Virus genome (UHGV): UHGV-0851987 | Direction: 5' to 3' (one strand) | DNA length: 31,064 nucleotides | Source of the DNA: a virus | Part shown: positions 18 through 31,064 of the stretch, one piece after another | Layout of the letters: each line of letters begins with the position of its first letter | How positions within the stretch are numbered: position 1 is the first letter of the stretch | The notes under the pieces: model-generated | Seen by the model: only the letters and a program-made list of their open reading frames with translations | Told to the model about the DNA's origin: nothing | The model's database searches: none | Translations under genes and position numbers: made by a program

Positions 18-986
18 TTAGTAGGTTATTTTTGTTGCGAATACTTCGCCTTTTACGATGGCTGTTATGATATTTTTAGCAACATCTTCTGATGCACCAA
101 CCTTGATAAGGTCAGCAAGTATTTTGTTATTTACTTCTTTCCGGTGAGCTTTATCCTTTGCTCTACGCTCTTCTTCGTCCTTGATTCTTTTTTCTTCTGC
201 TATTCTGGCTTGCTCTTTTGCTTCAGCCTCGCGCCGGATTCGTTCAGCCTCCTCCTGTGCTTTTCGGCGTTCTGCTTCAATTGCCGCCTGCTTTTCTCTT
301 TCAGCTCGTTCTGCTGCCTTTTTTGCTTCGCGCTGTGCTCGTTGCTCGGCTTCAATGCGTTCACGCTCTGCACGTTCCGCTGCTGCCTTAGCTTCTGCTT
401 CTCGCCTTGCTGCTGCTTCAATTTCGGCTTTTGCCTTTGCTTCGGCTTCTGCTCTGGCTTTCTCTTCAGCTTCTCTTTTTAAGCGTTCTTCATGCTCTCG
501 CTTTTCCTGCTCCGCTTTGAGTCTTGCCTCTTCTCTTTTGCGGTCAAATTCGCGATCCATCAAAATAGCTATTTCATGGTCAGACTCAATTTGCTTTGCG
601 AGAGCTTCAGCTGCTGCCTTAGCTTCTTCTTCGGCTTTAATCCGCGCCTGTTCTTCCTCATAATCAGTAAGAGGCTGGCGTGCCTTGGCTTTCAGCTCAT
701 CAAGGCGATCACGCACTGTCTTGCGGTTAGCATCAATTAGCTTTGGAATTTCCTTCAGTTCAGCAACAAGGTCTTTGCCAAGACCATCGAGATATGTTTT
801 CGTCTGCGCAACTTTATACGCCAGAGAAGCGATCTCCTTTCTGCCCTTTGCCGTTGTGATATCAGGCACAAAGGACATAACTTCACGTTCAACCTTTTGG
901 AGAATTTCTTCAATCTGGTCTGCAGACTGAAATACAGTCATTGCATTTGCTTTTTCAATAACAACTAAGTCTGTTACTTCACTCAT
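18..986 (-). CDS. Conserved phage early-left protein with long Glu/Ala/Lys/Arg-rich coiled-coil core; function unknown
   Basis: Long ORF in the supplied track (18..1082); start trimmed to the ATG at 984-986, which has a GGAGG RBS (complement of 991-995) 4 nt upstream. The globular N-terminus is followed by about 170 aa of EAKAKAEIEAAARREAE-type repeats. Opposite-strand ORFs across the repeat are artefacts. Confidence 0.7.
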   Translation of the reverse strand: MSEVTDLVVIEKANAMTVFQSADQIEEILQKVEREVMSFVPDITTAKGRKEIASLAYKVAQTKTYLDGLGKDLVAELKEIPKLIDANRKTVRDRLDELKAKARQPLTDYEEEQARIKAEEEAKAAAEALAKQIESDHEIAILMDREFDRKREEARLKAEQEKREHEERLKREAEEKARAEAEAKAKAEIEAAARREAEAKAAAERAERERIEAEQRAQREAKKAAERAEREKQAAIEAERRKAQEEAERIRREAEAKEQARIAEEKRIKDEEERRAKDKAHRKEVNNKILADLIKVGASEDVAKNIITAIVKGEVFATKITY

Positions 987-998
987 ATATCCTCCATC

Positions 999-1026
999 AA
1001 AAAAAATTGCCCTCACATCGGAGGGC
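999..1026 (-). terminator. Intrinsic terminator directly upstream of the RBS of gene 18..986
   Basis: On the minus strand: GCCCTC-N6-GAGGGC hairpin (1009-1026) followed by AA and an 8-nt U run (complement of 999-1006). The geometry matches a tL-type terminator inside an N-antiterminated operon. Confidence 0.55.
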
Positions 1027-1162
1027 GAAGAAGATTTCCAATAATCAGAACAAGTCGGCTCCTGTTTAGTTACGAGCGACATTGCTCCGTGTATTCACTC
1101 GTGGGAATGAATACACAGTGCAGTGTTTATTCTGTTGTTAGTGCCAAAAATAAAGGCCACCA

Positions 1163-1414
1163 TCAGGCAGCCTTGTTGTAAATGTTGCAGGTATCAAGTA
1201 AGTAATTAGATGGAGCGCCATAAATTATGAATTCATCGTTTGTCGGGTCCATCTCCATCTCTTGGCCTATTGCCATTCTTGCGTCAGTGTCATCAGCGGC
1301 GAAGCATAAAACAGCCCACGCTCCCATTGTTTTAAAAAGAACTGCAATTGGCTGTGGTTTTACTGAATTTGCGTTAGCGCGGAAATCATAAATCGCACTT
1401 TCATGAAATTCCAT
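1163..1414 (-). CDS. Hypothetical small early protein (83 aa), translationally coupled to N; occupies the position taken by ral in lambda
   Basis: ORF in track. The ATG lies 4 nt after the N stop codon, with GAGGGG overlapping the end of N. No family recognised with confidence. Confidence 0.6.
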   Translation of the reverse strand: MEFHESAIYDFRANANSVKPQPIAVLFKTMGAWAVLCFAADDTDARMAIGQEMEMDPTNDEFIIYGAPSNYLLDTCNIYNKAA

Positions 1415-1953: not shown

Positions 1954-1992
1954 TCACCTTCATGGTGGTCAGTGCGTCCTGCTGATGGCTAA

Positions 1993-2021
1993 ATAGTACG
2001 ATTTGTACTTTATCGAGTCAA
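1993..2021 (-). promoter_or_regulatory. pL promoter with operator palindrome
   Basis: Minus strand: -35 TTGACT (complement of 2016-2021), 17-nt spacer, -10 TACTAT (complement of 1993-1998). The spacer contains the perfect palindrome AGTAC-N5-GTACT. Downstream transcribed sequence continues into nutL. Confidence 0.6.
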
Positions 2022-2084
2022 TACAAAATGCTCTAAATATAATTGGTTTTTTATAACGCTTTGTATTTAATGGGTTTATATTTT

Positions 2085-2125
2085 GGAAAAAGAAAACCCG
2101 ACACTAAGGTCGGGTTATTGTTGTG
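2085..2125. terminator. Bidirectional intrinsic terminator between cI 3' end and pL
   Basis: Hairpin CCCGAC-ACTAAG-GTCGGG (2097-2114), flanked by TTATTGTTGTG on the plus strand and UUUUCUUUUU on the minus strand. It would stop the cI transcript before pL; no rex-like genes are present. Confidence 0.6.
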
Positions 2126-2146
2126 TGCTTTAGAGTGGTGAGGCTG

Positions 2147-2806
2147 TTAACTAAATGTCTCTTCAGGCCACTGGCTGGCGATAACTTTCCCTACAACGGA
2201 ACAGCTATCATTGCATGGGATCATTGGATATTGCGGGTTTAGTGGTTGTAGGAACACCTGACCGCTATCCCTGATCAGTTTCTTGAAAGTAAACTCGTCA
2301 CCACCAAGTCTGGCTATGCAGAAATCACCTGGCTCAACAGCCTGCTCAGGGTCAACGAGAATTAACATCCCGTCAGGAAAGCTTGGCTTGGATCCTGTTG
2401 GTGCGGTCATGGAATTACCTTCAACTTCAAGCCAGAACGCACAATCACTGGCTTTTTTGGTTGTGCTGACCCATCTCTCCGCATCACCTTTGGTAAAGGT
2501 TCTAAGCTCAGGCGAGAACATCCCGGCCTGAACATGAGAAAAAACAGGGTACTCATATTGTTTTTTAACGGGGATAGATGAGTATTCGCCAACAGGTGAA
2601 AATGTACCGTCGTGGTTGAATGAGACGCTATCAATACCAAGGTATTTAAACACCACACCAATCTCGTCAAGAGATGGATGACGAGATCCGCGCAACCAGT
2701 GACCAATTCCACCCTGCGTCATACCAAGCTCTTCAGCCAACTTCTCTTGAGTTATGCCGAGCTCTTTCATTCTGGATCTAGCCAGTTCATACCATTTCAT
2801 TTTCAT
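2147..2806 (-). CDS. cI: CI-type prophage repressor: HTH DNA-binding domain plus LexA-like S24 autopeptidase domain (hybrid)
   Basis: The C-terminal roughly 130 aa ([18 protein letters not shown] ... [69 protein letters not shown] ... [11 protein letters not shown]) matches my recollection of lambda CI almost exactly. The N-terminal HTH domain ([38 protein letters not shown]) is unrelated to lambda CI. Start chosen at MKMKW (ATG 2804-2806); the alternative is the second Met at 2798-2800. Confidence 0.9.
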
Positions 2807-2917
2807 ACCCTTATTATTACGCTCTGTACTAAAACCATCCATGCACAAGATGTATTTTTTGTTTGCATTTCAAAAGTACATATCGTATTATTATCTCATG
2901 GTTACTATGGAGGGCAT
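2807..2917. promoter_or_regulatory. OR region: divergent pRM/pR promoters and operators
   Basis: pR: -35 TTGCAT (2863-2868), 17-nt spacer, -10 TATTAT (2886-2891), GGAGG RBS (2909-2913). The spacer contains AGTAC-N5-GTATT, a near copy of the pL palindrome. A roughly 35-bp module is shared between pR and pL. The pRM elements themselves are not confidently placed. Confidence 0.6.
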
Positions 2918-3133
2918 ATGAGCAACCTACGAAAATATCGAGAGTCACTGAATATCTCTCAAACAACACTTGCTAAGGCGGTTGGATGCACACAGGGAGC
3001 TATTGGGCATTGGGAATCTGGTCGTCGCTTCCCAGACCTTAAAACATGCCGCGCTCTTGTTGCATGCCTAAACAAGTTAGGCGCAAAAGTCAGTCTTGAT
3101 GACGTGTTCCCTCCGGAACACAAAGCCGCTTAA
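2918..3133 (+). CDS. cro: Cro-like HTH repressor (71 aa)
   Basis: ATG at 2918 preceded by GGAGGG. The protein MSNLRKYRESLNISQTTLAKAVGCTQGAIGHWESGRRFPD has an XRE-type HTH, and its recognition-helix motif TQG-IGHW--G-R-P is shared with the CI N-domain. The track ORF 2678..3133 is an upstream over-extension. Confidence 0.8.
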   Translation: MSNLRKYRESLNISQTTLAKAVGCTQGAIGHWESGRRFPDLKTCRALVACLNKLGAKVSLDDVFPPEHKAA

Positions 3134-3141
3134 GACATTCC

Positions 3142-3173
3142 AGCTCTTACACATTCCAGCCCTGAAAAAGGGC
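3142..3173 (+). promoter_or_regulatory. nutR site (boxA plus boxB)
   Basis: AGCTCTTACA (boxA-like, 3142-3151), spacer CATTCCAG, then GCCCTGAAAAAGGGC (boxB, 3159-3173). Matches lambda nutR as I recall it. Confidence 0.85.
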
Positions 3174-3239
3174 ATCCAATTAAACCACACCTATGGTGTA
3201 TGCATTTATTTGCATACATTCAATCAATTGTTATCTAAG

Positions 3240-3276
3240 GAAATACTTACATATGGTTCGTGCAAACAAACGCAAC
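3240..3276 (-). promoter_or_regulatory. PRE-like promoter with CII-binding TTGC-N6-TTGC repeats
   Basis: Minus strand reads TTGCGTTTGTTTGC (complement of 3262-3275), overlapping the first codons of cII as in lambda PRE. Confidence 0.55.
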
Positions 3277-3549
3277 GAGGCTCTACGAATCGAGAGTGCG
3301 TTGCTTAACAAAATCGCAATGCTTGGAACTGAGAAGACAGCGGAAGCTGTGGGCGTTGATAAGTCGCAGATCAGCAGGTGGAAGAGGGACTGGATTCCAA
3401 AGTTCTCAATGCTGCTTGCTGTTCTTGAATGGGGTGTTGTCGACGACGACATGGCTCGATTGGCACGACAAGTTGCTTCGATTCTCACCAATAAAAAACG
3501 CCCGGTGTGCAAGACCGAGCGTTCTGAACAAATCCAGATGGAGTTCTGA
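3253..3549 (+). CDS. cII: Transcriptional activator CII (lambda type)
   Basis: Translation from ATG 3253 is [84 protein letters not shown]...[10 protein letters not shown], close to my recollection of lambda CII. The track ORF 3193..3549 is over-extended. Confidence 0.95.
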
Positions 3550-3606
3550 GGTCATTACTGGATCTATCAACAGGAATAATTATGACAAAACAACTCAGTC
3601 CTTACC
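3528..3606 (-). ncRNA. OOP-like antisense RNA with its terminator at the 3' end of cII (approximate bounds)
   Basis: Minus-strand hairpin (arms at 3531-3536 and 3559-3564) followed by UUGUUC. The 3' terminal sequence of cII and the following bases are lambda-like, where the OOP terminator lies. The 5' end and pO promoter are not precisely located. Confidence 0.4.
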
Positions 3607-3728
3607 AGGACAAAATTCACAAACACATACTACGTGATCGCTTCCTGTCCAGCTTCAAGCAGCCTGGTCGATTCCGGGCTGAGTTGGAAAAGGTGAAGCT
3701 GATGCAGAAGGAGAAAGGTCATGAGTAA
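3582..3728 (+). CDS. Small ORF (48 aa) between cII and the replication initiator
   Basis: ATG at 3582 with AGGA upstream; translation [48 protein letters not shown]. Below the track size cutoff. It overlaps the start of the initiator by 8 nt. P22 carries an 'orf48' at the same position as I recall. Confidence 0.4.
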
Positions 3729-4620
3729 CATATCTAATCTAGCCGAAGCCAGAGAGGCCAGAAGGCTACAACAACCGCATCAAAGCAGCGGTAAGGGGTA
3801 TGCCTTGCTGCACCGTAAAATTATGGATGTGCCGTTTTACAAGGACGCAGAAGCTGCGCATCTGTGGATTCACTTAATCCTCAAAGCAAAGCATACGCCT
3901 GAGTATGTAATGACTGACGCAGGAGAAATTCTGGTAGGCAGAGGGAAGCTACTTGGCGGTAGAAACTCTCTGGCGTTTGAAACAGGACTCAAACCAGATC
4001 GCGTTCAGTACCTGCTTAGAAAGTTCAAAAAACTCGGCATGATTGACTGGGTTTCACACGGTAAATTTTCAGTTTTCTCGGTAGAGAAATATGACGATTA
4101 TCAGTCAAATTTTGTACCAGCAGATTACCAGCAAATTACCACCTCAAAGCCAGCAATACCAATGCCTGTAAGCAATACTGTACCAGCAGATTACCAGCAA
4201 ATTACCACAGATAAAGAATATAATAATATTATCTCTAATACTGACGTATTAGAGAGTGCCACAGCAGACAAAAAGTCTGACAAGAAAAAACCTTCCGTCA
4301 GCTGTCAGGATGTTGTCGATGCTTACCACGAAATCCTTCCTGAAGCGCCAAGAATCCGCGCACTGAATGACAAGCGTAAAAACCAGATCCGAACGTTCTG
4401 GCGCAAAGCCGGAGTGATAACCCGCCAGCTTGACGGGCATGGGTTCACGATGCAGGACTGGAGAAATTATTTGAGCTACGTAGGCGAAAATTGCCGATGG
4501 ATGTTCGAAGAACGCCCAAACCATCAACGCGGAACCGTCTGGCACAAAAAGGGATTTGATTTCCTGCTTAACGACAATACCTACCTGAAAGTTCGTGAGG
4601 GTGAACACGATGACCGATAA
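3721..4620 (+). CDS. Replication initiation protein (O-like replisome organizer)
   Basis: ORF in track with RBS GGAGAAAGG before the ATG at 3721. It sits immediately upstream of, and overlaps, the helicase gene. The origin-like iterons lie inside the coding sequence. Confidence 0.85.
4114..4245 (+). repeat. Putative replication origin: two 29-bp direct repeats (iterons) plus AT-rich tract
   Basis: GTACCAGCAGATTACCAGCAAATTACCAC occurs at 4114-4142 and again at 4180-4208, each with an internal ATTACC sub-repeat. Followed by AGATAAAGAATATAATAATATTATCTCTAATA. The arrangement parallels ori-lambda inside gene O. Confidence 0.6.
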
Positions 4621-6046
4621 TTTTTATGCGCCGCCCCATAGCATCGAGGCAGAGCAGGCGGTGATTGGTGGATTGCTTCTGGATGATGACAGCAGTGAGC
4701 GCGTCCAGAAAGTTCTGGCGATGCTGAAGCCTGATTCATTTTACAGCCGACCACACAAAATCCTTTTCGAAGAAATAACCAGAATGCACCGGGAGCAAAA
4801 GCCAGTAGATGGCCTGACGCTTTTCGATGAACTGGAGCGTAAATCGTTAACGGCGTCTGTTGGCGGTTTTGCTTATATCGCTGAGATCGCAAAGAACACG
4901 CCAAGCGCAGCAAACATCGTTGCCTATGCAATGCAGGTTCGTGAAACCGCAATGGAACGCTACGCCATCAACCGCATGACTGAAGCGACGGAATTGCTCT
5001 ATTCCCGCAACGGAATGACTGCAACGCAGAAGTACGAAGCTATTCAGTCGATTTTCACGCAACTGACAGACCATGCAAAAACCGGATCGCGTCGCGGCCT
5101 TCGCTCATTTGGTGAGGTCATGGAAGACTGGGTTAGCGACCTTGAGAAGCGATTTGACCCGTCAGGCGAACAACGAGGAATGAGCACAGGGATCCCATCG
5201 CTGGACAGGATGCTGTCACCGAAAGGTCTGGTGAAAGGCTCTCTGTTTGTCATTGGCGCTCGCCCTAAGATGGGGAAAACGACGCTATACAGCCAGATGG
5301 CAATCAACTGCGCAGTGCATGAGAAAAAGCCCGCTCTGATGTTCAGCCTTGAAATGCCCGGTGACCAGATACTGGAAAAACTGGTAGGGCAGAAGTCAGG
5401 TGTTAACCCAAATATTTTTTACCTTCCAGCGACAAATGACGCTGATGACGGCTATCAGGGTGATTACGATGGTGACTTCAACAGGGCGATCGAAACAGCA
5501 AATCGCTTGAGTGAAATCGACCTGCTTTACATCGACGACACGCCGGGATTATCTCTGGCTCAAATCGTCAGTGAAAGCCGTCGAATCAAGCGAGAAAAAG
5601 GATGTGTTGGCATGATTCTGGTCGATTACCTGACACTAATGACCGCTGAGAAGGCCGATCGCAACGACCTTGCTTACGGCATGATCACCAAAGGACTGAA
5701 GAATCTTGCCAAAGAGCTTGATTGCGTTGTTGTGCTTCTGACACAGCTTAACCGCGCACTGGAAAGCCGAACCAATAAACGCCCATTACCAAGTGACTCA
5801 CGAGATACAGGGCAGATTGAACAGGATTGCGATTATTGGGTGGGGATCCATCGTGAAGGTGCTTTTGATGACAGCGTTCCTCCTGGTGAAACCGAACTAA
5901 TCCTTCGCCTCAATCGTCATGGCAATACCGGCACGGTGTATTGCATTCAGGCAAATGGCGCTATTTATGACACAGACCAACAGTCTGCTGAAATGCGCCG
6001 CCGTGAACGCGAGGAACCGCAGTCCAAGAAGAAAGGAGGATTCTGA
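4610..6046 (+). CDS. Replicative DNA helicase, DnaB family
   Basis: DnaB N-terminal domain (HSIEAEQAVIGGLLLD), Walker A GARPKMGKTT and DnaB-type C-terminal motifs. Start at ATG 4610 after GAGGG; the track start at 4595 is a short over-extension. Confidence 0.9.
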   Translation: MTDNFYAPPHSIEAEQAVIGGLLLDDDSSERVQKVLAMLKPDSFYSRPHKILFEEITRMHREQKPVDGLTLFDELERKSLTASVGGFAYIAEIAKNTPSAANIVAYAMQVRETAMERYAINRMTEATELLYSRNGMTATQKYEAIQSIFTQLTDHAKTGSRRGLRSFGEVMEDWVSDLEKRFDPSGEQRGMSTGIPSLDRMLSPKGLVKGSLFVIGARPKMGKTTLYSQMAINCAVHEKKPALMFSLEMPGDQILEKLVGQKSGVNPNIFYLPATNDADDGYQGDYDGDFNRAIETANRLSEIDLLYIDDTPGLSLAQIVSESRRIKREKGCVGMILVDYLTLMTAEKADRNDLAYGMITKGLKNLAKELDCVVVLLTQLNRALESRTNKRPLPSDSRDTGQIEQDCDYWVGIHREGAFDDSVPPGETELILRLNRHGNTGTVYCIQANGAIYDTDQQSAEMRRREREEPQSKKKGGF

Positions 6047-6315
6047 TGAATAAAAAACAATTAGCCATTCTCGAAAAGGCATGGGATGCACAAATATCAT
6101 GCGCTTTGAAAGAACAGGCACTACCAATAATCCAGACCAAATCGAAAATAGCCAGGCAGTTATGCGATGACGGATTCCTGAACGAAGTTGAGATTACGCG
6201 CCAGATGGTAACGTTCAAAGGGTATGAGATAAATCATCATGGTATAGCGGCGTATTGCTCCCATCTTCCTGATGACGTTGACATTGATGAAATGGAAAGG
6301 GAGATGAAGCAATGA
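6046..6315 (+). CDS. Hypothetical protein (89 aa)
   Basis: ORF in track. Translationally coupled (TGATG) to the helicase, with AAAGGAGGA RBS inside the helicase 3' end. Confidence 0.6.
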   Translation: MNKKQLAILEKAWDAQISCALKEQALPIIQTKSKIARQLCDDGFLNEVEITRQMVTFKGYEINHHGIAAYCSHLPDDVDIDEMEREMKQ

Positions 6316-6340
6316 CCATCTACATCACTGAGCTAATAAC

Positions 6341-6372
6341 AGGCCTGCTGGTAATCGCAGGCCTTTTTATTT
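6341..6372 (+). terminator. Intrinsic terminator (tR2-like position)
   Basis: AGGCCTGC-N8-GCAGGCCT hairpin (6341-6364) followed by TTTTTATTT. Confidence 0.6.
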
Positions 6373-6387
6373 GGGGGAGAGTAAATC

Positions 6388-6594
6388 GTGGCTGAGTTTA
6401 TGCTCGTCGCACTCAAATGCGTTGGCGTTGGATGGATTCTTCTGTCGTTTTTTATTGTTCTGCATAGCTACATTCGTCTTGTGAATGACGGTAAAGACCC
6501 ATGGTATACGTTGTTTGGCGCTGCATTTGTCTGGGTGATTATCGGTGTTATGCCTGTCGCTGTAGCAAAAATGGCGTGGCGTTTTGTTAGTTGA
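6388..6594 (+). CDS. Small membrane protein (68 aa, two predicted TM helices), GTG start
   Basis: ORF in track. GGGGGAGAG RBS 6 nt before GTG 6388. Two hydrophobic segments (VALKCVGVGWILLSFFIVL and LFGAAFVWVIIGVMPVAVA). Confidence 0.5.
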   Translation: MAEFMLVALKCVGVGWILLSFFIVLHSYIRLVNDGKDPWYTLFGAAFVWVIIGVMPVAVAKMAWRFVS

Positions 6595-6601
6595 GGTAAC
6601 G

Positions 6602-7048
6602 ATGAAGCAAATATACATGCTTCGCAACGAAGCAATCAGAAACAACGCCATAGACGCAATACTCTCACTTCCGATCGACGACAAGTCACCTCACGAAGTC
6701 CACATTAAAGAACCAAAGCGGAGCAATCCTCAAAACCGCCTTATGTGGGCGTTATTGCAGGACGTATCGCGTCAGGTGCTCTGGCATGGAGAGAGACTTG
6801 CGCCGGAGGACTGGAAAGATCTGTTCACTGCCCTGTGGCTTAAGACCAAAAAACTGGAGCAACGAAGTGCGCCTGGTATCGACGGTGGCGTTGTTATGCT
6901 TGGCGTGCGTACCAGCAAAATGCGAAAGGCCAGTATGACTGAGCTTATCGAAATCATGTTCTGGTTCGGCTCAGAGCGCAACGTGCGGTGGAGTGATGAC
7001 TCCCGGAGAGAGTATGAATGGTCACAACGAAAAGGGAGAGCTGCATGA
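6602..7048 (+). CDS. ninB: NinB-like recombination protein
   Basis: Resembles my recollection of lambda NinB (shared motifs QNRLMWALLQDVSRQV.WHG, GVRTSKM, ERNVRWSD). Start at ATG 6602 after GAGG. Confidence 0.8.
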   Translation: MKQIYMLRNEAIRNNAIDAILSLPIDDKSPHEVHIKEPKRSNPQNRLMWALLQDVSRQVLWHGERLAPEDWKDLFTALWLKTKKLEQRSAPGIDGGVVMLGVRTSKMRKASMTELIEIMFWFGSERNVRWSDDSRREYEWSQRKGRAA

Positions 7049-7572
7049 CTATCAAATCAAATACCCCGGCACACGACAAGGACTGCTGGAGAACGCCGCT
7101 TTGGCTTTTTGATGCACTGGATATTGAGTTTGGATTCTGGCTGGATTCGGCAGCGAGCGACAAAAATGCTCTGTGCGCTCACTGGCTAACTGAGGCTGAC
7201 GACGCGCTAAATTCTGAGTGGATAAGCCACGGTGCAATCTGGAATAACCCACCGTACAGCAATATCAGGCCGTGGGTGGAAAAAGCCGCTGAGCAGTGCA
7301 TACAACAGCGACAGACGGTAGTGATGCTTGTGCCAGAGGATATGTCTGTCGGATGGTTCAGCAAGGCTCTGGAGAGTGTTGACGAAGTTCGTATTATCAC
7401 TGATGGACGGATTAATTTTATCGAACCATCGACAGGGCTGGAGAAGAAGGGAAACAGCAAAGGTTCCATGCTGCTGATTTGGCGACCGTTCATCAGTCCT
7501 CGACGGATGTTTACTACCGTATCCAAAGCGGCATTGATGGCGATCGGGCAGGGCGTCAGGAGGGCGGCATGA
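7045..7572 (+). CDS. DNA N6-adenine methyltransferase (phage Dam-like, orphan)
   Basis: NPPY catalytic motif (IWNNPPYSN) and the overall phage Dam family pattern. ATGA overlap with the ninB stop; GGGAGAG RBS. Confidence 0.8.
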
Positions 7573-7745
7573 GACGACAGCGACGAAGTATCACCGACAT
7601 CATCTGCGAAAACTGCAAATACCTTCCAACGAAACTCTCCAGAAATAAACGCAAGCCAATCCCCAAAGAATCTGACGTAAAAACCTTCAACTACACGGCT
7701 CACCTGTGGGATATCCGGTGGCTAAGACATCGTGCGAGGAAATGA
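7569..7745 (+). CDS. ninE: NinE-like protein
   Basis: Translation [58 protein letters not shown] resembles lambda NinE as I recall it. ATGA overlap with the methyltransferase stop. Confidence 0.7.
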
Positions 7746-8149
7746 CAATGCTTTTAATTCAACCTGGATTTGGACTTGGCATCAAAAAAGGCCACATGTT
7801 TGGCGAGAAAGAGTCACAACGAAAAATGGTGTCTATCCGGTTGCCATTTATCAGTATTTGTTGGCTAAACAGGGAGGCAACAAATTATTGGTATACATGC
7901 GCCAGAGCAGCATTTAACGACCCTGACTGGTTTGTGAAAAACCACCACGCAGTTCGTCAGGCAAAGAGAAAGGCCAAAATGACATACATGAAGGCGTATC
8001 AAAAAGCATGGAAAGAACACCGCGATCGATACCAACAAGACATGGAAAAGCTTGAATCAGAAAACATGGAATTAAGACGAAAGCTCGGTGAAGCAAAACG
8101 AGACATTGATGCTTACAAGCGACTTTTTAATGGTGAAAGCCATGCTTAG
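7742..8149 (+). CDS. Hypothetical protein inserted between ninE and ninF (start uncertain)
   Basis: ATGA overlap with the ninE stop. The C-terminal 56 aa ([50 protein letters not shown]) are coiled-coil-like and have their own RBS (AGAGAAAGG) before the ATG at 7979, which may be the true start. Confidence 0.45.
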
Positions 8150-8318
8150 CCCATCCCAATCCCTTCAATACCAGAAAGAAAGCGTCGAGCGGGCTTTAAC
8201 GTGCGCTAACTGCGGTCAGAAGCTGCATGTGCTGGAAGTTCACGTGTGCTCCGATTGCTGCGCAGAACTGATGAGCGATCCGAATAGCTCAATGTACGAG
8301 GAAGAAGACGATGAGTGA
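8142..8318 (+). CDS. ninF: NinF-like protein
   Basis: Translation [58 protein letters not shown] resembles lambda NinF as I recall it. Start at the internal ATG 8142 after GGTGAAAG. Confidence 0.7.
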   Translation: MLSPSQSLQYQKESVERALTCANCGQKLHVLEVHVCSDCCAELMSDPNSSMYEEEDDE

Positions 8319-9063
8319 GTTAATGAATGGCAATGCCATCAAAATGACAAGCATTGAAATCGCTGAGTTGGTGGGTAAGCGTCATGACAATGTGAAACGT
8401 ACCATCGAAACGCTGGCTAAAAATGGTGTTATCCGGCTTCCTCAAATTGAGGTTTCCGAAAGAATCAATAACTTAGGGTTCAATGTTCAGTACGAGCATT
8501 ACGTCTTCGAGGGCGAACAAGGTAAGCGAGACAGTATTGTCGTTGTTGCCCAGTTGTCGCCAGAGTTCACCGCTCGTCTTGTTGACCGTTGGCGAGAGCT
8601 TGAAGAAACTGCGGTTAATATCCCCAAAACGCTACCAGAAGCATTGCGCCTTGCTGCTGATCTTGCTGAGCAGAAAATGCAACTGGAAAACCAGCTCGCA
8701 ATTGCCGCACCTAAAGTTGAGTTTGCCGATCGCGTTGGCGAGGCCAGTGGAATTTTGATTGGAAACTTTGCAAAGGTTGTTGGTATTGGTCCGAACAAAC
8801 TGTTTGCGTGGATGCGCGATCACAAAATCCTTATTGCTTCAGGTTCCCGGCGCAATGTGCCAATGCAGGAATATATGGATCGCGGCTATTTCGCAGTGAA
8901 AGAAACAGCGGTCAACACAAATCACGGAATACAGATATCGTTCACCACAAAAATCACCGGGCGTGGTCAACAGTGGCTGACCAGAAAGCTGCTCGATAAC
9001 GGAATGCTGAAAGTAACAGGCGGACGGCTTGGAATAAAAATCACCGAACTGGAGAACGCATGA
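8311..9063 (+). CDS. Phage antirepressor, Rha-type N-terminal domain plus KilAC-type C-terminal domain
   Basis: N-terminus MTSIEIAELVGKRHDNVKRTIETL is typical of Rha-family regulators; the C-terminal half is typical of KilA-C antirepressor domains. The start may be 8311, 8323 or 8344. Confidence 0.75.
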   Translation: MSELMNGNAIKMTSIEIAELVGKRHDNVKRTIETLAKNGVIRLPQIEVSERINNLGFNVQYEHYVFEGEQGKRDSIVVVAQLSPEFTARLVDRWRELEETAVNIPKTLPEALRLAADLAEQKMQLENQLAIAAPKVEFADRVGEASGILIGNFAKVVGIGPNKLFAWMRDHKILIASGSRRNVPMQEYMDRGYFAVKETAVNTNHGIQISFTTKITGRGQQWLTRKLLDNGMLKVTGGRLGIKITELENA

Positions 9064-9248
9064 ACGCCACAATTCAAACGATACCAGAGCTTCTTATCCA
9101 GACACGAGGCAATCAGACCGAAGTGGCGAGGATGCTTTCCTGCGCAAGAGGAACAGTGCTCAAGTACAACCGAGACAGCAAAGGCGATCGTCACGTAATA
9201 GTTAACGGCGTCCTGATGGTCAAACAGGGAAAGAGGGGAAGACGATGA
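9060..9248 (+). CDS. ninH: NinH-like protein
   Basis: Core GNQTEVARMLSCARGTVLKY and VNGVLMV resemble lambda NinH. ATGA overlap with the antirepressor stop. Confidence 0.7.
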   Translation: MNATIQTIPELLIQTRGNQTEVARMLSCARGTVLKYNRDSKGDRHVIVNGVLMVKQGKRGRR

Positions 9249-9733
9249 GCATAAGAGAACTAAACCTCACCAAAGAGCAGCACGAGTGGCTGAATGGCTG
9301 GCTTGAACTGTGGGGAGCATGGGTTTATTCAGGCCGCCTGGAAAAGCGCATGAGCAGCGTAATAGCGAAGTTCATGGAGAGCGTAGAGCCGGGAAGAGTT
9401 ATGACAAGGCCAATGTGTAATGATGATGATGGAATGTTGATTTCTCAGGTCGTCGATTCCGTCATGTACATTGACAAGAAAGCCTTTGGCATCCTCCTCA
9501 GCTACTACGCTCATGGATCTTCCAAGCATGCCATTGCATCTTACTATCATCGTGTCGCAAGACCTCGCAAGATGTTATGCCGGGGCGGCGGGCGTATTCA
9601 AAAACCATCGCTCGCAACCTGTCGCCGGGAAGTTGACGAAATCCTCAATGCTTCGTTGTTTATGATTTACCCGGTTCTGGATAGTGCGTTTAAAAATCGG
9701 AAACGTGTAGAGAAAATTAAACATGTAGCATAG
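9245..9733 (+). CDS. Q: Late-gene antitermination protein Q (phage 82 / QuuD-like family)
   Basis: WGAW ... RP.C.DDD motif pattern typical of the Q82/QuuD family. Position immediately upstream of the late promoter region and lysis genes. GAGGGGA RBS; ATGA overlap with ninH. Confidence 0.75.
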   Translation: MSIRELNLTKEQHEWLNGWLELWGAWVYSGRLEKRMSSVIAKFMESVEPGRVMTRPMCNDDDGMLISQVVDSVMYIDKKAFGILLSYYAHGSSKHAIASYYHRVARPRKMLCRGGGRIQKPSLATCRREVDEILNASLFMIYPVLDSAFKNRKRVEKIKHVA

Positions 9734-26168: not shown

Positions 26169-26332
26169 CTTTTCAAACACCAGGAACGTGCAAAAACCAA
26201 ATATGTAGAACGCAATATTCAACAGATCTCTTTGCATAGACTCATCTCATAATTAACAAATCATAACTGACATTAGTGCAATGCTGGGCAAGTTGCATCT
26301 TGTCAGGCATTGCTACGTCCGGAGCAAATTAA

Positions 26333-28372
26333 ATGACAGACATTACAGCCAATGTTGTAGTAAGTATGCCATCGCAACTCTTCACTATGGCGCGTTCTTT
26401 TAAAGCAGTTGCCAATGGCAAAATTTATATCGGGAAGATTGACACTGACCCTGTAAATCCAGAAAACCAGATTCAGGTTTATGTGGAGAACGAAGATGGT
26501 TCTCACGTTCCTGTATCGCAACCAATCATCATTAATGCTGCTGGTTACCCGGTATATAACGGGCAGATTGCCAAATTCGTAACTGAGCAAGGCCATTCTA
26601 TGGCTGTTTATGATGCGTATGGTGCACAGCAGTTCAAATTCCCAAATGTGCTGAAGTATGATCCGGATCAGTTTGAAGCAAGATTATATGATGATGTTTG
26701 TTCTGGAAATTTTCCCAGCAAGATGGGATACATACACAACACTTTGCATGCAACATTGCGCACATTGCAACATAAGCTTGACGATATACTATCTGTTAAA
26801 GATTTTGGCGCCGTAGGAGATGGTTTAGATCATCCTCTTAGCGAAAAGTTCAGCACATTAAGTGCTGCTCAGATGGTTTATCCATTTGTTACCGCATTAA
26901 CACAAACCCAAGATTACGCTGCGATACAAGCTGCGATTAACACTGCTAAATTTATTAACGCAGGCGTGTTTCTGCCATCTGGCCAATACGTGGTAAATAC
27001 AGAAATTGTGGCGGATTATGCTCTTAGCTTATATGGCGAAGGCAGCGGTGGTTTGCGTGACATAGCCTCTACAGGTCACGAGGAATCGCCTGTTCGTGGG
27101 TCTGTAATATTGTCTAAAGTAAACCCCGGAAGAACGTTGTCAATTAATAGCACTACAGGTTTTTCATTCGGTATGACATTGCGCGACTTCGCAATATGGG
27201 GTGTGCAAGACTCTTGTGACGTGGGCCTGTATACTAACCATGTAGGTTGGACAGGGATTATGTCCGGTTTAAATATCCAACGCTTCCCAAATCAAGCGTG
27301 GGAGGTGGGCTATATTCAAGATACATACGTGAACAACTGCACTTTTTTGCTCAGCGGTTCTCAAGATAAACCTGCAGTGCACTTCCTTAACGACTCTAAC
27401 TATATCTATTTCAATGGTTGTCATTTTGAGGATACTCCTTACTTTATTAAAATGACTAATGCGTGGAACATAGCGTTCCATCATTGCCATTTCGAAGTAG
27501 CCCGTACAGTAAACGGCTCACTGGATGATAGATTTTTTTACCGAAGCGCACCCATTGACCTTGGTGCAAGCTATAGAATTCAATTTTCAGAAAATACATT
27601 CATACCGACCGATGTAGGTTACCTGTCGTCGAAACTAGATGCACCAAGAAACCAGGTTCCGTATTTTATGACGGGTTCTGGAGGTAACAGCATTAGCTTC
27701 TCTGGGGATATATTCCTGGCACCAGAAGGTAGTGTAGATGCTATGTATCTGGATTGCACAGCTGTTAGTGTATTGGGGTGTAAATTTATACGAATGTCTC
27801 CCAGCCGCGAATGTATACATATCACCGACGGACATGTAAGTAATTGCGAGATAGGGATTTCAGCCGCCGAGGACCTAACAAAATTGTACGGTATCTATGT
27901 CGGCAAAGGCGGTGTTTCAAACTGTACCTTTGGTTTCTATGAGTCTGACTCCGGTGGGAAACGAAATGAAGGCGCGCTATTATTTGGAGAGGGGAAGGCT
28001 AACGGTAATTCATACCCTGACGATGACCGTGTGTATATTTTTCTGGATTCACCAACGAAGGTTGATGGTTACGACGGTGGAGATGCAAGATTCATTACCT
28101 TAACAGAAAGCACTATTGTAGATTTAACAAAAGTTCATCCATCAACTCATTATAATATAATCGGCTCTTCGGTAGCTATTACTAACATTTATGGTGCTCC
28201 ACTAGGCAGAGACCTGATTGTACGGGTGTCTAGTGGTGATCATTCTGGTGTTAAGTACGTAGCCGGTTCTGTCGAAACTAATGGAGCTACTGATTGGGCC
28301 GCGGTGCCAAGCACAAACGCGATATTCAAATGCATTAAAGGACCGGCTGGTAAAGTGATGTATCAGTTATAA
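26333..28372 (+). CDS. Tailspike protein: P22/Sf6-type N-terminal head-binding domain plus divergent receptor-binding domain
   Basis: N-terminal roughly 115 aa ([61 protein letters not shown] ... VLKYDPDQ) match the conserved podovirus tailspike head-binding domain. The remainder is consistent with a beta-helix enzyme domain (my inference). GGAG RBS. Confidence 0.9.
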
Positions 28373-28384
28373 ACTAGTGGTGTG

Positions 28385-28411
28385 TGTTTTAAATAAACCA
28401 CCTCTAAATGA
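28385..28411. terminator. Bidirectional intrinsic terminator between the convergent tailspike and Wzy-like genes
   Basis: 10-bp stem AAACCACCTC / GAGGTGGTTT with loop TAAAT, T-rich on both sides. Confidence 0.65.
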
Positions 28412-28428
28412 GGTGGTTTTTGCAAAAG

Positions 28429-29754
28429 TTATCTTTGAGTTCTCGCAAATCTAAGGCATAGCAACACAAAAGAGAATGCCACTAAAAATACAGACATATC
28501 AACAACATAAGCAATGCCAACAGGAGGCGATAACAGTAGCTGCAAAGATCTAATATAAAAAACAGCCAAAAACGAAGATGTAAATGGAAGCATGCATCCT
28601 GAGTTTTTATACTTTGCTTTTGAAATCCTTCCTATTATAAAACCTATAATAGACGTCATAATTAAGCTTCCAATAAATCCAAAAAACACATATCCTGCAA
28701 GATCAAAGTGACTTGTTGGACCTCTTGCAATATCATCCCATGGGTACCATTGTTTCCATATCAATCTACCTACATCATTATCAAAATAGTTATATGAGAA
28801 CACGGTTTTTACAAATCCATTTCCACCTATATATCCAAATAGCTGAATAAAAGGGTTTTCAACAACTATTCTATTGATAGTGTCGTAAGGCAGAGAAAAA
28901 TAGTAAGCATCTCCATTTGCAATTATTCTCATAAGGAATAGCTCAAATATAACAGGCAAGTCTGTATACTGAGAACTGGTATAACCTATAGATTCAGATG
29001 TAAACGTCAAAATATAAAGAACATATGCAATCATGGCTGAAAAAGATACGAGACTGATTGCCAAGAACTTTAAATTTATTCTTGGAGACACACCTGAATA
29101 TATATATATTGCCGCTATTGATACTAGCGCGTGTTCAAGAAGAGAGAACTTAGCACCTGACACAAAAGACGCAATAACAGCCACTAAAATTGCAAAAAAT
29201 ATAATAATTGCTCTATTTAACTTATTTTTTGTTTTGTATATATTTATAGCCAGCATAGCTGACAATAACAATCGCACAACATCTAGTATTCTTACAATTA
29301 CTCCAAGACCTTTATTTGCCTCAAACCTTGATTCACCAAACGAAGAGAATGAAACATTTAATAAATAGTACGCTGTTAATACAACATACATAACAAAAAT
29401 AATCTTAAATGAAAATTTATAGTTGCTGTCTACCTCTCTGAAAAGAGCGTTTCTAAGACCAGCTATTGGCTTTATGTTTAGACTAAATGAAAATCTCCAT
29501 GTTATAACAAGGATAATAAAGTTAAGTAGTACCATTATGGCTAGGTAATCGTCTATGTACCCGTAAAGATATAGAATTATGACAACTGAATATGCAGTTC
29601 CAGAACCGAAGGCAAAAAAGTAGTGCGCTGGATCTATTATTCCATAGGTTGTTTTTCTTATTGCTTTGTAGCATAAGAACGCGCAAAGAAAGGTTAATAG
29701 CATGTAACCAATCCAGTGTGTGAATATAAAACTGAAAAATTCACTATCGCTCAT
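28429..29754 (-). CDS. Polytopic inner-membrane protein, candidate O-antigen polymerase (Wzy/EpsG-like) serotype-conversion moron
   Basis: 441-aa ORF with roughly 10-12 hydrophobic segments and high F/I/Y/L content. Visibly AT-rich DNA compared with the rest of the window. Located between tailspike and integrase, where P22/Sf6-type phages carry O-antigen-modifying genes. Lacks the acyltransferase-3 signature expected of an Oac-type acetylase. The function is inferred. Confidence 0.7.
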   Translation of the reverse strand: MSDSEFFSFIFTHWIGYMLLTFLCAFLCYKAIRKTTYGIIDPAHYFFAFGSGTAYSVVIILYLYGYIDDYLAIMVLLNFIILVITWRFSFSLNIKPIAGLRNALFREVDSNYKFSFKIIFVMYVVLTAYYLLNVSFSSFGESRFEANKGLGVIVRILDVVRLLLSAMLAINIYKTKNKLNRAIIIFFAILVAVIASFVSGAKFSLLEHALVSIAAIYIYSGVSPRINLKFLAISLVSFSAMIAYVLYILTFTSESIGYTSSQYTDLPVIFELFLMRIIANGDAYYFSLPYDTINRIVVENPFIQLFGYIGGNGFVKTVFSYNYFDNDVGRLIWKQWYPWDDIARGPTSHFDLAGYVFFGFIGSLIMTSIIGFIIGRISKAKYKNSGCMLPFTSSFLAVFYIRSLQLLLSPPVGIAYVVDMSVFLVAFSFVLLCLRFARTQR

Positions 29755-30168
29755 TTTTATTTCCGAATAGTTTTAAAAAAACATAAACATACGAAATTAT
29801 TAATACAGCAATCACGAATGCATGTGGCTAACTTACAATTTGCATCATACTTTGTATTTATGCCATTCATGTCAATATCATTTTATTTCCTTGACAAATC
29901 AACATTGTTACATAAGAAAGTTTCTTATGCAAAGTTAAAACCAGCTTGAAAATATTCGTTTGCTAACGAAATCAACTCAATAGAGTCATTGATAGTTAGC
30001 ACGTCTATCTCAAATGTGTTAAGAGTGATTTTGACATAAGAGGACTCTGTGCAGAGAATTTATACCATAAACAAAAACTTGTCATGGCGGGAAAAGATGG
30101 ATGCAGTATACATAATCATTAGATTACAATGTTCTGTTCCATTAGTTATCATTTAAGTGTTAGCTATT

Positions 30169-31064
30169 TCATTTGTCATCAAGCCAGTCAGCCCACCACT
30201 GCATCATCTCCCTGCGCTTATCGAGATACTGCGCATGGTTGTAAATACCGCGCACAGATCCGCCGTTGGCATGTGCCAGTTGCACTTCAATAGCATCAGC
30301 AGGCCATTCGTGCTCGTTCATAATCGTGCTGAATTCATGCCTGAATCCGTGACCGCTTTCCAGCCCTTCATAGCCAATTTGTTTGATCACAAGCAATACC
30401 GCGTTCTCGCAGATTGGCTTCTTCTTATCGTTGCGCCCGGCAAAAACAAACTCTGAGACTGGTTTGGTGATTGAGCTTAGCGTAGTGAGAAGTTCAACCA
30501 CCTGGTCTGACATCGGGACCACATGAATTTTTCGTCCCTTCATCACACTGGCGTCGATGGTGATAATCCTGTTTTCAAAATCGACGTTCTTCCATAGCAT
30601 GGAACGAAGCTCTTTCGTTCTTAGGGCTGTATAACGTAAAACTTTTGTCGCAATGAGCGATACGATACTTCCTGAAAATGTTGCCAGTGCTTTGTTGAAT
30701 GCAGGGATCTGGTCTGCTGGAAGGAACGGGAAGTTCTTCTTGCGGTATCCTTTCATGGCGTCTGCAAGGTCAGGTGCCGGGTTATATTTAGCCCTTCCGG
30801 TGACAATAGCGTAACGAAAAACCTCGCCGCATCTTCTGCGGGCTTTGTTGGCTCGCTCCATTGCACCGCGATCTTCAAATCTTCGGATTACTTCCAGCAG
30901 TTGCATCGGCTCAATATCCTGAATTTCAAGACCGCCGATGATGGGTAAAATGTCGTCATCAAACATTTTGGCAAGTTCAGTTGCATAGCCTACTGACCAG
31001 ACTTGCTTCTTGTGCTCGTACCATTCCTTGTAAATCGCACTAAATGAATTGTTGTTAGACGAAG
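30169..31064 (-). CDS. int: Tyrosine integrase (P4-like family), 5'-truncated by the window edge
   Basis: C-terminal catalytic region with HGFRHEFST and LAHANGGSVRGIYNHAQY (tyrosine recombinase R/H/Y signature region). The reading frame stays open to position 31064, so the N-terminus lies beyond the window. Confidence 0.9.
   Translation of the reverse strand, partial: SSNNNSFSAIYKEWYEHKKQVWSVGYATELAKMFDDDILPIIGGLEIQDIEPMQLLEVIRRFEDRGAMERANKARRRCGEVFRYAIVTGRAKYNPAPDLADAMKGYRKKNFPFLPADQIPAFNKALATFSGSIVSLIATKVLRYTALRTKELRSMLWKNVDFENRIITIDASVMKGRKIHVVPMSDQVVELLTTLSSITKPVSEFVFAGRNDKKKPICENAVLLVIKQIGYEGLESGHGFRHEFSTIMNEHEWPADAIEVQLAHANGGSVRGIYNHAQYLDKRREMMQWWADWLDDK

What the first reader, a model, noticed from the sequence alone, without database searches (positions are those of the whole stretch)
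28373..30168. Low-GC Wzy-like membrane gene between tailspike and integrase: candidate lysogenic-conversion module
The 441-aa polytopic membrane protein (28429..29754, minus strand) is strongly AT-rich compared with the flanking phage genes, which marks it as acquired cargo. It sits at the conversion locus used by P22 (gtrABC) and Sf6 (oac), but is neither a Gtr-type glycosyltransferase set nor an acyltransferase-3 acetylase by my reading. A Wzy/EpsG-like O-antigen polymerase is the best fit. Epsilon15-type phages pair a polymerase with an inhibitor of the host enzyme, but I see no convincing partner gene here. Together with the divergent tailspike receptor domain, this would couple receptor recognition to receptor remodelling.
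Basis: partly seen in the sequence, partly recalled or inferred. Interest (0 to 1): 0.7.

Follow-up and report, generated by a model that had tools for sequence, protein, structure and literature searches.

The report
Prophage-borne O-antigen polymerase next to tailspike
A P22-like E. coli prophage carries, between its tailspike and integrase genes, a low-GC gene for a Wzy-type O-antigen polymerase with no inhibitor partner; it travels with one tailspike receptor domain, was found only in O114 strains, and in all four complete genomes that have it the host's own polymerase gene is broken.

Summary
A 441-aa, 11-helix membrane protein is encoded at 28429..29754 (minus strand). Its GC is 33% against 48% for the rest of the phage, and it lies between the tailspike and IntS.

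Two findings are new.
- **One cassette:** the gene and the tailspike receptor domain form a single 3.6-kb cassette shuffled among different P22-like backbones. Among 5,426 complete E. coli genomes it occurs in four, all with the O114 gene cluster.
- **Broken host gene:** in all four, the chromosomal O114 wzy carries one of two independent poly-T frameshifts. All five O114 genomes without the cassette have it intact. Database counts suggest most carriers keep an intact host wzy, so the link is partial.

The gene is most likely a seroconverting polymerase that can replace the host enzyme. It is a new member of a known kind (ε15, D3, Acinetobacter WzyPh1). RefSeq already names it "O-antigen polymerase", but it has not been studied.

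The parts
26333..28372 (+). P22-type tailspike, 679 aa. The head-binding domain is aa 1-113. The receptor-binding part, from about nt 26720 onward, belongs to the conserved cassette.
   Evidence: Pfam Head_binding E=6e-65 and pectate-lyase-like fold. Nt 26750-28372 occur in exactly the same 4 complete E. coli genomes as the wzy gene. A recombination breakpoint lies near 26720.
28395..28419 (.). Bidirectional terminator hairpin between the convergent tailspike and wzy genes: a 10-bp stem, followed by UUUUUG on the + strand and UUUAUUU on the - strand.
   Evidence: strand folding gives dG -15.8 and -15.7 kcal/mol, z = -2.6 and -4.6. ε15 and Sf6 have a terminator in the same place.
28429..29754 (-). 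wzy-like gene: a 441-aa polytopic inner-membrane protein, predicted O-antigen repeat-unit polymerase. It has 11 TM helices and a 93-aa predicted periplasmic loop (aa 257-349).
29755..30168 (-). AT-rich (30% GC) upstream spacer that belongs to the cargo. It presumably holds the wzy promoter and 5'UTR. A T7/T8 length polymorphism lies at about 29776-29785.
   Evidence: Composition. Promoter-like sites are no more frequent than in shuffled sequence. No Rfam match.
29744..29815 (-). Marginal 23-aa GTG-initiated hydrophobic ORF that overlaps the wzy start. It is the only co-directional small ORF with a TM-grade hydrophobic stretch and is probably not a gene.
   Evidence: Best 17-residue hydropathy window (Kyte-Doolittle scale) 2.32. 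I see no Shine-Dalgarno sequence. Its C-terminus is changed by the T-run indel in 2 of 8 related loci. It has no similarity to the ε15 or D3 Iap.
30169..31064 (-). IntS-type tyrosine integrase; only the C-terminal 298 codons are present, because the window ends 256 bp short of the start codon. In relatives the prophage sits at tRNA-Arg (argW) next to yfdC.
   Evidence: Pfam Phage_integrase E=2e-39. The 383-aa intS, tRNA-Arg and yfdC are seen. The cassette boundary lies near 30360.

Best explanation
The gene encodes a Wzy-type, SEDS-like O-antigen repeat-unit polymerase carried as lysogenic-conversion cargo.

Shown:
- It is a polytopic membrane protein of a family whose chromosomal members occupy the wzy position in O-antigen clusters.
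- It lies convergent to the tailspike gene and shares a terminator with it, as in ε15.
- It is inherited together with one particular tailspike receptor domain as a 3.6-kb cassette that moves between P22-like backbones.
- Among complete genomes the cassette is confined to hosts with the O114 gene cluster.
- No inhibitor gene accompanies it.

Inferred:
- In the lysogen the enzyme polymerises the host's Und-PP-linked O114 units in the periplasm.
- The linkage between units probably differs from the one made by the unrelated host Wzy, so the polymer is no longer the substrate of the phage's own tailspike. That would give superinfection exclusion and prevent released virions from being lost on lysogens.
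- Instead of an Iap-type inhibitor, the phage enzyme either simply competes with the host Wzy or the host wzy is lost. In at least two independent lysogen lineages the chromosomal wzy is inactivated by poly-T slippage, which would leave the prophage enzyme as the only polymerase.
For: Identity:
- TIGR04370 is the only profile hit and is full-length and colinear.
- hhalign against the O114 Wzy family gives E=2.3e-5 over 245 columns. It aligns R143, K202 and R276 with that family's conserved R165, K226 and R284.
- Homologs at 32-38% identity sit beside wzx and glycosyltransferases in chromosomal clusters, including rml-fdtA-wzx-GT-[X]-GT-gnd-ugd-wzz-his.
- The predicted topology puts the invariant charged residues in periplasmic loops.

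Phage role:
- All four close homologs whose context I looked up (47-52% identity; Cedecea, Enterobacter, Xenorhabdus, Morganella) lie immediately downstream of, and convergent to, a prophage tailspike gene.
- ε15 has the same layout.
- The slot holds oac or gtr genes in relatives.

Host link:
- wzy and the tailspike receptor domain occur in the same 4 of 5,426 genomes. All four have the O114 cluster, which only 9 genomes carry.
- The chromosomal wzy is frameshifted in 4 of 4 carriers and intact in 5 of 5 non-carriers.
- There are two different frameshifts, on two wzy haplotypes and with two different prophage backbones.
- The truncated products also occur in independent assemblies, so they are not sequencing errors.
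- The rest of the O114 cluster (wzx, glycosyltransferases, wzzB) is still annotated as intact in 90-9280.

Precedent: the Acinetobacter prophage WzyPh1 overrides an intact host Wzy without a known inhibitor and is restricted to one K locus (PMC9241936).
Against: - No enzymatic or LPS data exist for this protein.
- The window protein scores below the TIGR04370 cutoff (33.2 against 40). Five of ten broader family representatives do not hit the model at all.
- Foldseek found nothing in the PDB or BFVD.
- That the linkage differs from the host's is pure inference.
- The link with host wzy loss rests on only two independent events. The exact prophage protein is on at least 129 contigs, while the truncated host products are on roughly 20 and intact O114 Wzy on about 340. 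Most carriers therefore probably retain an intact host wzy, or some carriers are not O114; I could not check draft genomes.
- The promoter is not established.
Confidence: 0.6

Rival explanations
1. A polymerase with the same function as the host's. The phage Wzy makes the same linkage between units as the host O114 Wzy. It gives no seroconversion and acts only as a spare copy, which lets the chromosomal gene decay neutrally or rescues wzy-defective hosts.
For: The host wzy is dead in 4 of 4 complete lysogen genomes while the strains are still labelled O114 (E2980 is listed as O114 in PMC8085198).
Against: The two proteins are unrelated at BLASTP level (E=0.2). In the Acinetobacter work cited, Wzy enzymes known to make the same linkage share roughly 30-50% identity (PMC9241936). 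A same-linkage enzyme gives the phage no exclusion benefit and would not explain the strict co-inheritance with one tailspike receptor domain. The characterised phage Wzy enzymes of ε15 and D3 (my knowledge) and WzyPh1 all change the linkage. The O114 labels may come from genotyping.
Confidence: 0.2
2. A polymerase or ligase for another glycan. The protein acts on a different Und-PP-linked substrate (capsule, ECA, colanic acid or another exopolysaccharide), or it is a WaaL-like ligase, and it does not act on the O114 unit.
Against: There is no Wzy_C/O-antigen-ligase or EpsG Pfam hit. Chromosomal family members sit in O-antigen clusters between wzx and gnd, where no other wzy candidate is present. 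The cassette is restricted to O114-cluster hosts. Broken host wzy genes are tolerated only in carriers.
Confidence: 0.08
3. The conversion module is incomplete as read. A host-Wzy inhibitor exists but is unrecognisable. It could be the 23-aa hydrophobic ORF at 29744..29815, another small peptide in the 414-bp spacer, or a gene elsewhere in the phage.
For: D3 Iap is only 31 aa and starts with GTG; ε15 Iap lies directly upstream of its wzy. The 23-aa ORF has a hydrophobic core. A Morganella relative has a 47-aa single-TM ORF right after its wzy. Many carriers probably keep an intact host wzy, so something may silence it.
Against: The window has no similarity to any of the three peptides (best E about 0.3-1). 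I see no Shine-Dalgarno sequence before the 23-aa ORF. Its hydrophobic stretch of about 17 residues contains a Lys and is short for a TM helix. A T-run indel changes its C-terminus in 2 of 8 loci. No equivalent ORF is found beside the Cedecea, Enterobacter or Xenorhabdus genes.
Confidence: 0.1
4. Inert cargo: a decaying or unexpressed gene with no current function.
For: No promoter could be demonstrated. PHROGs lists the family as of unknown function.
Against: The identical full-length protein is on at least 129 contigs and on several different phage backbones, and the full-length variants examined (P0001, P0024, P0028) differ by only one or two residues. Forty columns are invariant across genera. 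An open frame of 441 codons in 33% GC DNA would not survive without selection.
Confidence: 0.02

Closest known systems
Salmonella phage ε15 conversion module (gp21 beta-polymerase plus Iap inhibitor of the host alpha-polymerase)
   Same: A temperate podovirus. The wzy-like gene lies immediately downstream of, and convergent to, the tailspike gene, with a terminator hairpin between them. The logic is to remodel the O-antigen that the tailspike recognises.
   Different: There is no detectable sequence similarity to gp21. ε15 has a 66-aa two-TM inhibitor directly upstream of its polymerase, and no counterpart exists here. The virion type differs (Uetakevirus against P22-like). Here the host polymerase is genetically dead in some lysogens rather than inhibited.
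Pseudomonas phage D3 (Wzy-beta, Iap, O-acetylase) and the derived O2/O16 serotypes
   Same: A phage-borne Wzy replaces the activity of the host Wzy-alpha and changes the inter-unit bond (PMC4815439 as listed; annotation).
   Different: D3 needs the 31-aa Iap peptide, which mimics Wzz TM2 (PMC12004945), and also carries an acetylase. The proteins are unrelated by sequence, and D3 is a siphovirus.
Acinetobacter baumannii prophage WzyPh1 (K127-WzyPh1 capsule)
   Same: A prophage wzy with no known inhibitor overrides the locus-encoded Wzy. It is found only in genomes with one particular polysaccharide locus, and closely related copies sit in unrelated phages (PMC9241936). This is the closest match in behaviour.
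   Different: Its substrate is capsule, not O-antigen, and the genus differs. The host wzy is intact there, and the abstract and discussion I read describe no linkage to a tailspike receptor domain.
P22 gtrABC and Sf6 oac lysogenic-conversion cassettes
   Same: The chromosomal slot is identical, between the tailspike gene and int on the opposite strand (Sf6; a gtr-type cassette in the closest backbone relative). The integration site is the same argW/IntS type.
   Different: Those enzymes decorate the O-antigen by glucosylation or acetylation. This one would change the polymer backbone linkage. There is no Gtr or acyltransferase domain here.
E. coli phage Kapi1 (P22-like, argW, modifies the O-antigen; gene unknown)
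   Same: An E. coli P22-like prophage at argW that uses and modifies the O-antigen. Host wzy 1-bp frameshifts arise readily under its selection (PMC8787464).
   Different: Kapi1's conversion gene was not identified. The ORF between its tailspike and int had no homologs and gave no phenotype. Kapi1 is in the phage collection, and that collection holds no match to this wzy.

Membership tests
Wzy / oligosaccharide repeat-unit polymerase (NCBIfam TIGR04370; SEDS-like fold) | The curated profile is matched above its cutoff | tested here: inconclusive
   The window protein scores 33.2 bits, E=2.8e-8, against a cutoff of 40, but the match is full-length and colinear. The 52% homolog P0003 scores 48.4 bits and the bona fide O114 Wzy 46.3. 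14 of 21 relatives hit at E<=0.01. Of 10 broader family representatives, 5 hit below threshold and 5 not at all.
Wzy / oligosaccharide repeat-unit polymerase (NCBIfam TIGR04370; SEDS-like fold) | Polytopic inner-membrane protein (about 10-14 TM helices) with large periplasmic loop(s) that carry conserved Arg, Lys or His residues | tested here: met
   The AF2 model has 11 TM helices. With N-terminus out and C-terminus in, the short loops carry 12 K/R inside and 3 outside. The invariant residues R143, K202, E271, R276, N280, R330 and H349 (D351 lies at the start of the next helix) fall in predicted periplasmic loops, including a 93-aa loop. The topology is predicted, not measured.
Wzy / oligosaccharide repeat-unit polymerase (NCBIfam TIGR04370; SEDS-like fold) | Family members are encoded with wzx and glycosyltransferases in Wzx/Wzy-dependent polysaccharide clusters | tested here: met
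   P0017 (37% identity) lies in the Enterobacter cluster rml-fdtA-wzx-GT2-[X]-GT-gnd-ugd-wzz-his and is the only wzy candidate there. P0021 lies next to wzx and GT2 genes.
Wzy / oligosaccharide repeat-unit polymerase (NCBIfam TIGR04370; SEDS-like fold) | Fold shared with the SEDS polymerases and WaaL | tested here: met
Wzy / oligosaccharide repeat-unit polymerase (NCBIfam TIGR04370; SEDS-like fold) | Detectable homology to a named, serogroup-defining Wzy | tested here: met
   hhalign of this family against the O114 Wzy family gives probability 76%, E=2.3e-5, 245 colinear columns with conserved R, K and R aligned. BLASTP alone is not significant.
Wzy / oligosaccharide repeat-unit polymerase (NCBIfam TIGR04370; SEDS-like fold) | Polymerises Und-PP-linked repeat units (activity) | not testable with these tools
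   The only indirect evidence is that broken chromosomal wzy genes are seen only in genomes that carry this gene.
ε15/D3-type two-component conversion (phage Wzy plus Iap inhibitor) | A small membrane peptide that inhibits the host Wzy is encoded beside the phage wzy | tested here: not met
   The window has no similarity to ε15 Iap, D3 Iap or the Morganella 47-aa peptide. The only hydrophobic co-directional small ORF (23 aa) is marginal.
ε15/D3-type two-component conversion (phage Wzy plus Iap inhibitor) | The phage wzy is convergent to and immediately downstream of the tailspike or tail-fibre gene | tested here: met
   Window layout compared with ε15. Four close homologs have the same layout.
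Gtr glucosylation cassette (GtrA/GtrB/GtrC) | GtrA flippase, GT2 GtrB and a serotype-specific GtrC | tested here: not met
   There is one gene only, with no Pfam GtrA or GT2 domain. A real gtr cassette in the same slot of a relative is shown.
Acyltransferase-3 O-antigen acetylase (Oac) | PF01757 Acyl_transf_3 domain | tested here: not met
   No Pfam hit at E<=1 for this protein, and none at E<=0.1 for any of the 21 family members.
O-antigen ligase (WaaL, Pfam Wzy_C) and EpsG | PF04932 or PF14897 profile match | tested here: not met

The most novel reading that the evidence does not exclude
In some enterotoxigenic E. coli O114 lineages, including the L3/CS7 clone of E2980, ETEC-2264 and 90-9280, the prophage enzyme has become the only O-antigen polymerase. 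Loss of the host wzy by poly-T slippage then does the job that the Iap inhibitor does for ε15 and D3. Under this reading the cell's smooth LPS depends on a prophage gene, and what genotyping calls 'O114' is a hidden phage-converted polymer with a different linkage between units.
Probability: 0.35. Interest if true: 0.7.

Novelty: new member of a known kind. Interest (0 to 1): 0.5.

Why it matters
Phage-encoded Wzy conversion is textbook for Salmonella ε15 and Pseudomonas D3. In the literature I could search I found no described E. coli or P22-like example. The main E. coli O-antigen review only speculates about a second wzy plus inhibitor, for O118/O151 (PMC7685785).

If the gene works as proposed, three things follow.
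- **Serotyping:** wzx/wzy-based in-silico serotyping would misdescribe the surface polysaccharide of O114 ETEC, a common ETEC genotype (17 of 362 isolates in PMC5643014). That matters for O-antigen vaccines and for choosing therapeutic phages.
- **Inhibitor-free route:** polymerase replacement could occur without an inhibitor, and this can be tested in naturally occurring strains that already lack the host enzyme.
- **Annotation:** it would assign a function to PHROG 14022/21145 and to a family of about 480 clusters on the edge of TIGR04370.

Tried and rejected
- **Phage collection:** no DNA or tblastn match to the gene, although a near-exact PHROG exists.
- **Profile libraries:** no Pfam family for any member and no PADLOC hit.
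- **RNA:** Rfam on 28000-31064 gave only a sub-threshold isrK-like hit inside int.
- **Inhibitor hunt:** tblastn with ε15 Iap, D3 Iap and the Morganella 47-aa peptide gave noise only. The 37-aa ORF at 29757..29870 abuts the wzy start, but it is not hydrophobic and is frameshifted by the T-run indel in 2 of 8 loci.
- **Promoter:** the scan found no more sites than in shuffled sequence.
- **Draft genomes:** I tried to test the prophage/host-wzy association there by looking up the truncated O114 Wzy products.
- **Literature:** nothing on E2980 or O114 ETEC mentions a prophage wzy or a broken chromosomal wzy.
- **Transporter reading:** rejected, because no profile or fold match supports it.
Full report
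**Observation.** The ORF at 28429..29754 (minus strand, ATG, 441 aa) is present as described. GC is 33.0% in the ORF (GC3 27%) and 30.0% in the 414-bp spacer upstream (29755-30168). The phage to the left has 48.2%, the tailspike 42.9% and the integrase fragment 47.5%. In DNA this AT-rich about 7.5% of random codons are stops, so an open frame of 441 codons is not a chance event (about 1e-15 by my arithmetic). The window is a lambdoid, P22-like prophage. It encodes N, a cI-type repressor, cro, cII, a DnaB helicase, Q and P22-type virion genes. It ends inside an IntS-type integrase, which in relatives sits at tRNA-Arg (argW) next to yfdC. A 10-bp hairpin at 28395-28419 (dG about -15.8 kcal/mol on either strand) separates the convergent tailspike and membrane-protein genes.

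**What the protein is.** Pfam gives no family for this protein or any of its 21 relatives, and PADLOC gives none. The only profile match is NCBIfam TIGR04370, 'oligosaccharide repeat unit polymerase'. The match is colinear over nearly the whole protein (45-400 against 14-373 of 396), E=2.8e-8, 33.2 bits, below the 40-bit cutoff. Fourteen of 21 relatives match the same model. The 52%-identical Cedecea homolog reaches 48.4 bits, as high as the serogroup-defining O114 Wzy at 46.3.

A profile-profile comparison with the O114 Wzy family gives E=2.3e-5 over 245 colinear columns. It aligns this family's invariant R143, K202 and R276 with R165, K226 and R284 of the other family. An AlphaFold model built on the family alignment is confident (pLDDT 81.6, pTM 0.86) and shows 11 transmembrane helices. 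With the N-terminus outside, the short cytoplasmic loops carry the positive charges. The invariant polar residues fall in predicted periplasmic loops, including a 93-residue loop at 257-349.

**Genomic context of the family.** The distant members (32-38% identity) lie in chromosomal polysaccharide clusters. In Enterobacter cloacae the gene sits in rml-fdtA-aminotransferase-wzx-GT2-[X]-GT-gnd-ugd-wzz-his, where it is the only candidate polymerase. Another member lies between wzx and GT2 genes. I looked up the context of four close homologs (47-52% identity), and all are prophage genes placed immediately downstream of, and convergent to, a tailspike gene. Those in Morganella and Xenorhabdus lie next to P22-type Head_binding tailspikes. 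Those in Cedecea and Enterobacter asburiae lie between a lysis cassette and an 827-aa tail protein of a different podovirus type. ε15 has this layout too: tailspike, terminator, then the polymerase on the opposite strand. The slot between tailspike and int holds oac in Sf6. It holds a gtrA/gtrB/DUF6056 cassette in the E. coli prophage whose backbone is closest to this window.

**Partner gene.** In ε15 a 66-aa two-TM inhibitor lies directly upstream of the polymerase, and D3 has a 31-aa GTG-initiated peptide. Neither of these, nor a 47-aa single-TM ORF that follows the Morganella homolog, has any counterpart in the window (best tblastn E 0.3-1). The 37-aa ORF abutting the wzy start is not hydrophobic, and a T-run indel frameshifts it in 2 of 8 related loci. 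The only co-directional ORF with a hydrophobic core is 23 aa long (29744..29815, GTG start). It has no visible ribosome-binding site and no equivalent in the other genera, so I rate it unlikely. No promoter stands out above chance, and Rfam finds nothing.

**Distribution and linkage to the tailspike.** The gene is absent from 50,697 phage records, although PHROG 14022 is a near-exact match of unknown function. Among 5,426 complete E. coli genomes it occurs in four, at 99.6-99.7% identity, and PGAP names it 'O-antigen polymerase'. The tailspike receptor-binding part (26750-28372) occurs in exactly the same four genomes.

The identical protein is on at least 129 contigs. It is always flanked by IntS and the 679-aa tailspike, but it sits on several different P22-like backbones, with or without the immI region and with ejection proteins of 639, 665, 707 or 797 aa. 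Across nine copies, positions 26721-30360 differ at 30 sites in 3,640 bp. The head-binding end of the tailspike and the 5' two-thirds of int differ at 7-10% of sites. These loci were retrieved by exact Wzy identity, so only the low diversity outside the ORF is informative. The tailspike receptor domain, the wzy gene, its upstream spacer and the 3' end of int therefore move as one cassette.

**Host link.** All four complete genomes with the cassette carry the O114 O-antigen cluster, which only nine of the 5,426 genomes have. In all four, the chromosomal 'O114 family O-antigen polymerase' is annotated as a frameshifted pseudogene. In all five O114 genomes without the cassette it is intact; two of those five are probably one strain.

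The alignment shows two different lesions:
- An extra T in a T7 run at nt 409, giving a stop at codon 143. It is in 90-9280, ETEC-2264 and E2980, which belong to one Bangladeshi ETEC clone (PMC8085198).

Both truncated products recur in independent assemblies, so they are real alleles and not read errors. In 90-9280 the rest of the cluster (wzx, glycosyltransferases, wzzB) is still annotated as intact. The phage and host polymerases are unrelated at BLASTP level.

**Limits of that link.** There are only two independent events. Database counts put intact O114 Wzy on roughly 340 contigs, the truncated forms on roughly 20, and the prophage protein on at least 129. Most carriers therefore probably keep an intact host wzy, or some are not O114. 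I could not inspect draft genomes directly. Host wzy loss is thus something the prophage gene seems to permit, or to favour. It is not a requirement.

**Mechanism proposed.**
- *Shown:* a Wzy-family membrane protein, encoded as low-GC cargo in the conversion slot, co-inherited with one tailspike receptor domain, confined to O114-cluster hosts among complete genomes, and without an inhibitor gene.
- *Inferred:* it polymerises the host's O114 units with a different bond between units, so lysogens stop displaying the tailspike's substrate. The host enzyme is either out-competed or, in some lineages, removed by slippage at poly-T tracts.

Spontaneous 1-bp wzy frameshifts are the resistance mutations selected by the related phage Kapi1 (PMC8787464). 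In a non-lysogen such a mutation leaves only a single O unit on the LPS. A lysogen with a second polymerase would escape that cost. The closest behavioural precedent is the Acinetobacter prophage WzyPh1, which overrides an intact locus-encoded Wzy with no known inhibitor and is found only with one K locus (PMC9241936).

**Rivals.** The alternatives are a same-linkage spare polymerase (0.2), an unrecognised inhibitor somewhere in the phage (0.1), a polymerase or ligase for another glycan (0.08), and inert cargo (0.02).

**Verdict.** This is a new member of a known kind (phage-encoded Wzy seroconversion). RefSeq already names it by homology, but it has not been characterised, and I found no published P22-like or E. 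coli example. The association with independently broken host wzy genes in ETEC O114 is the part worth following up. It can be tested directly with existing strains.

Noticed in passing
window 29776-29785 (minus-strand T run, 22-31 nt upstream of the wzy ATG): The T run is T7 in the window and six related loci but T8 in L023 and L024. This length polymorphism lies in the 5' leader or promoter-proximal region and might modulate expression.
   Followed up: partly
L004:11332-11475 (and L005:9143-9286), Morganella morganii P22-like prophage: A 47-aa ORF with a single C-terminal TM segment (MNKHSKNANKNDVSMEKKEDAVVLLLLCSSVVLLILAGIKMLITSGA) lies directly after the wzy homolog and before the tailspike. 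It is an Iap-like candidate in that relative. It is absent from the window and from the Xenorhabdus locus.
   Followed up: partly
window about 26720 and about 30360: Sequence diversity among nine related loci jumps from about 0.8% inside to 7-10% outside these points. This marks recombination breakpoints at the junction between the tailspike head-binding and receptor domains, and inside int.
   Followed up: yes
window 26169-26332 compared with L001:7193-9933: The window has no immI region (arc, ant and neighbours) between the gp16-like ejection gene and the tailspike, whereas the ETEC O114:H49 prophage with the same cassette does. The window instead encodes a Rha/KilAC antirepressor at 8311..9063.
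   Followed up: no
window 18..1082 (-) and 1163..1414 (-): A 354-aa ORF and an 83-aa ORF lie downstream of the N antiterminator gene in the leftward early operon. Neither has a Pfam family; they match only PHROGs of unknown function (1376/21365 and 2471). This position often holds exclusion or defence morons.
   Followed up: partly
window 26700-28372 (tailspike aa about 120-679): The receptor domain is about 52-55% identical to tail spikes of virulent phages of quite different types and genome sizes (about 156-159 kb Salmonella phages SS3, SS9 and SeKF_64; about 72-74 kb FSL SP-076, S5, PE007 and Jgk1). This suggests a shared or related glycan target across phage lineages.
   Followed up: no
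L012:11245-12577 and L014-L016 (chromosomal O114 wzy): The host wzy contains T7 and T8 homopolymer tracts, and both observed frameshifts lie in them. These tracts could make O114 polymerisation reversibly switchable, independent of the prophage.
   Followed up: partly
window 30758-30848 (+): A weak isrK-like Rfam hit (20.5 bits against a gathering score of 50, E=0.19) lies antisense within the integrase gene. It is most likely chance.
   Followed up: no
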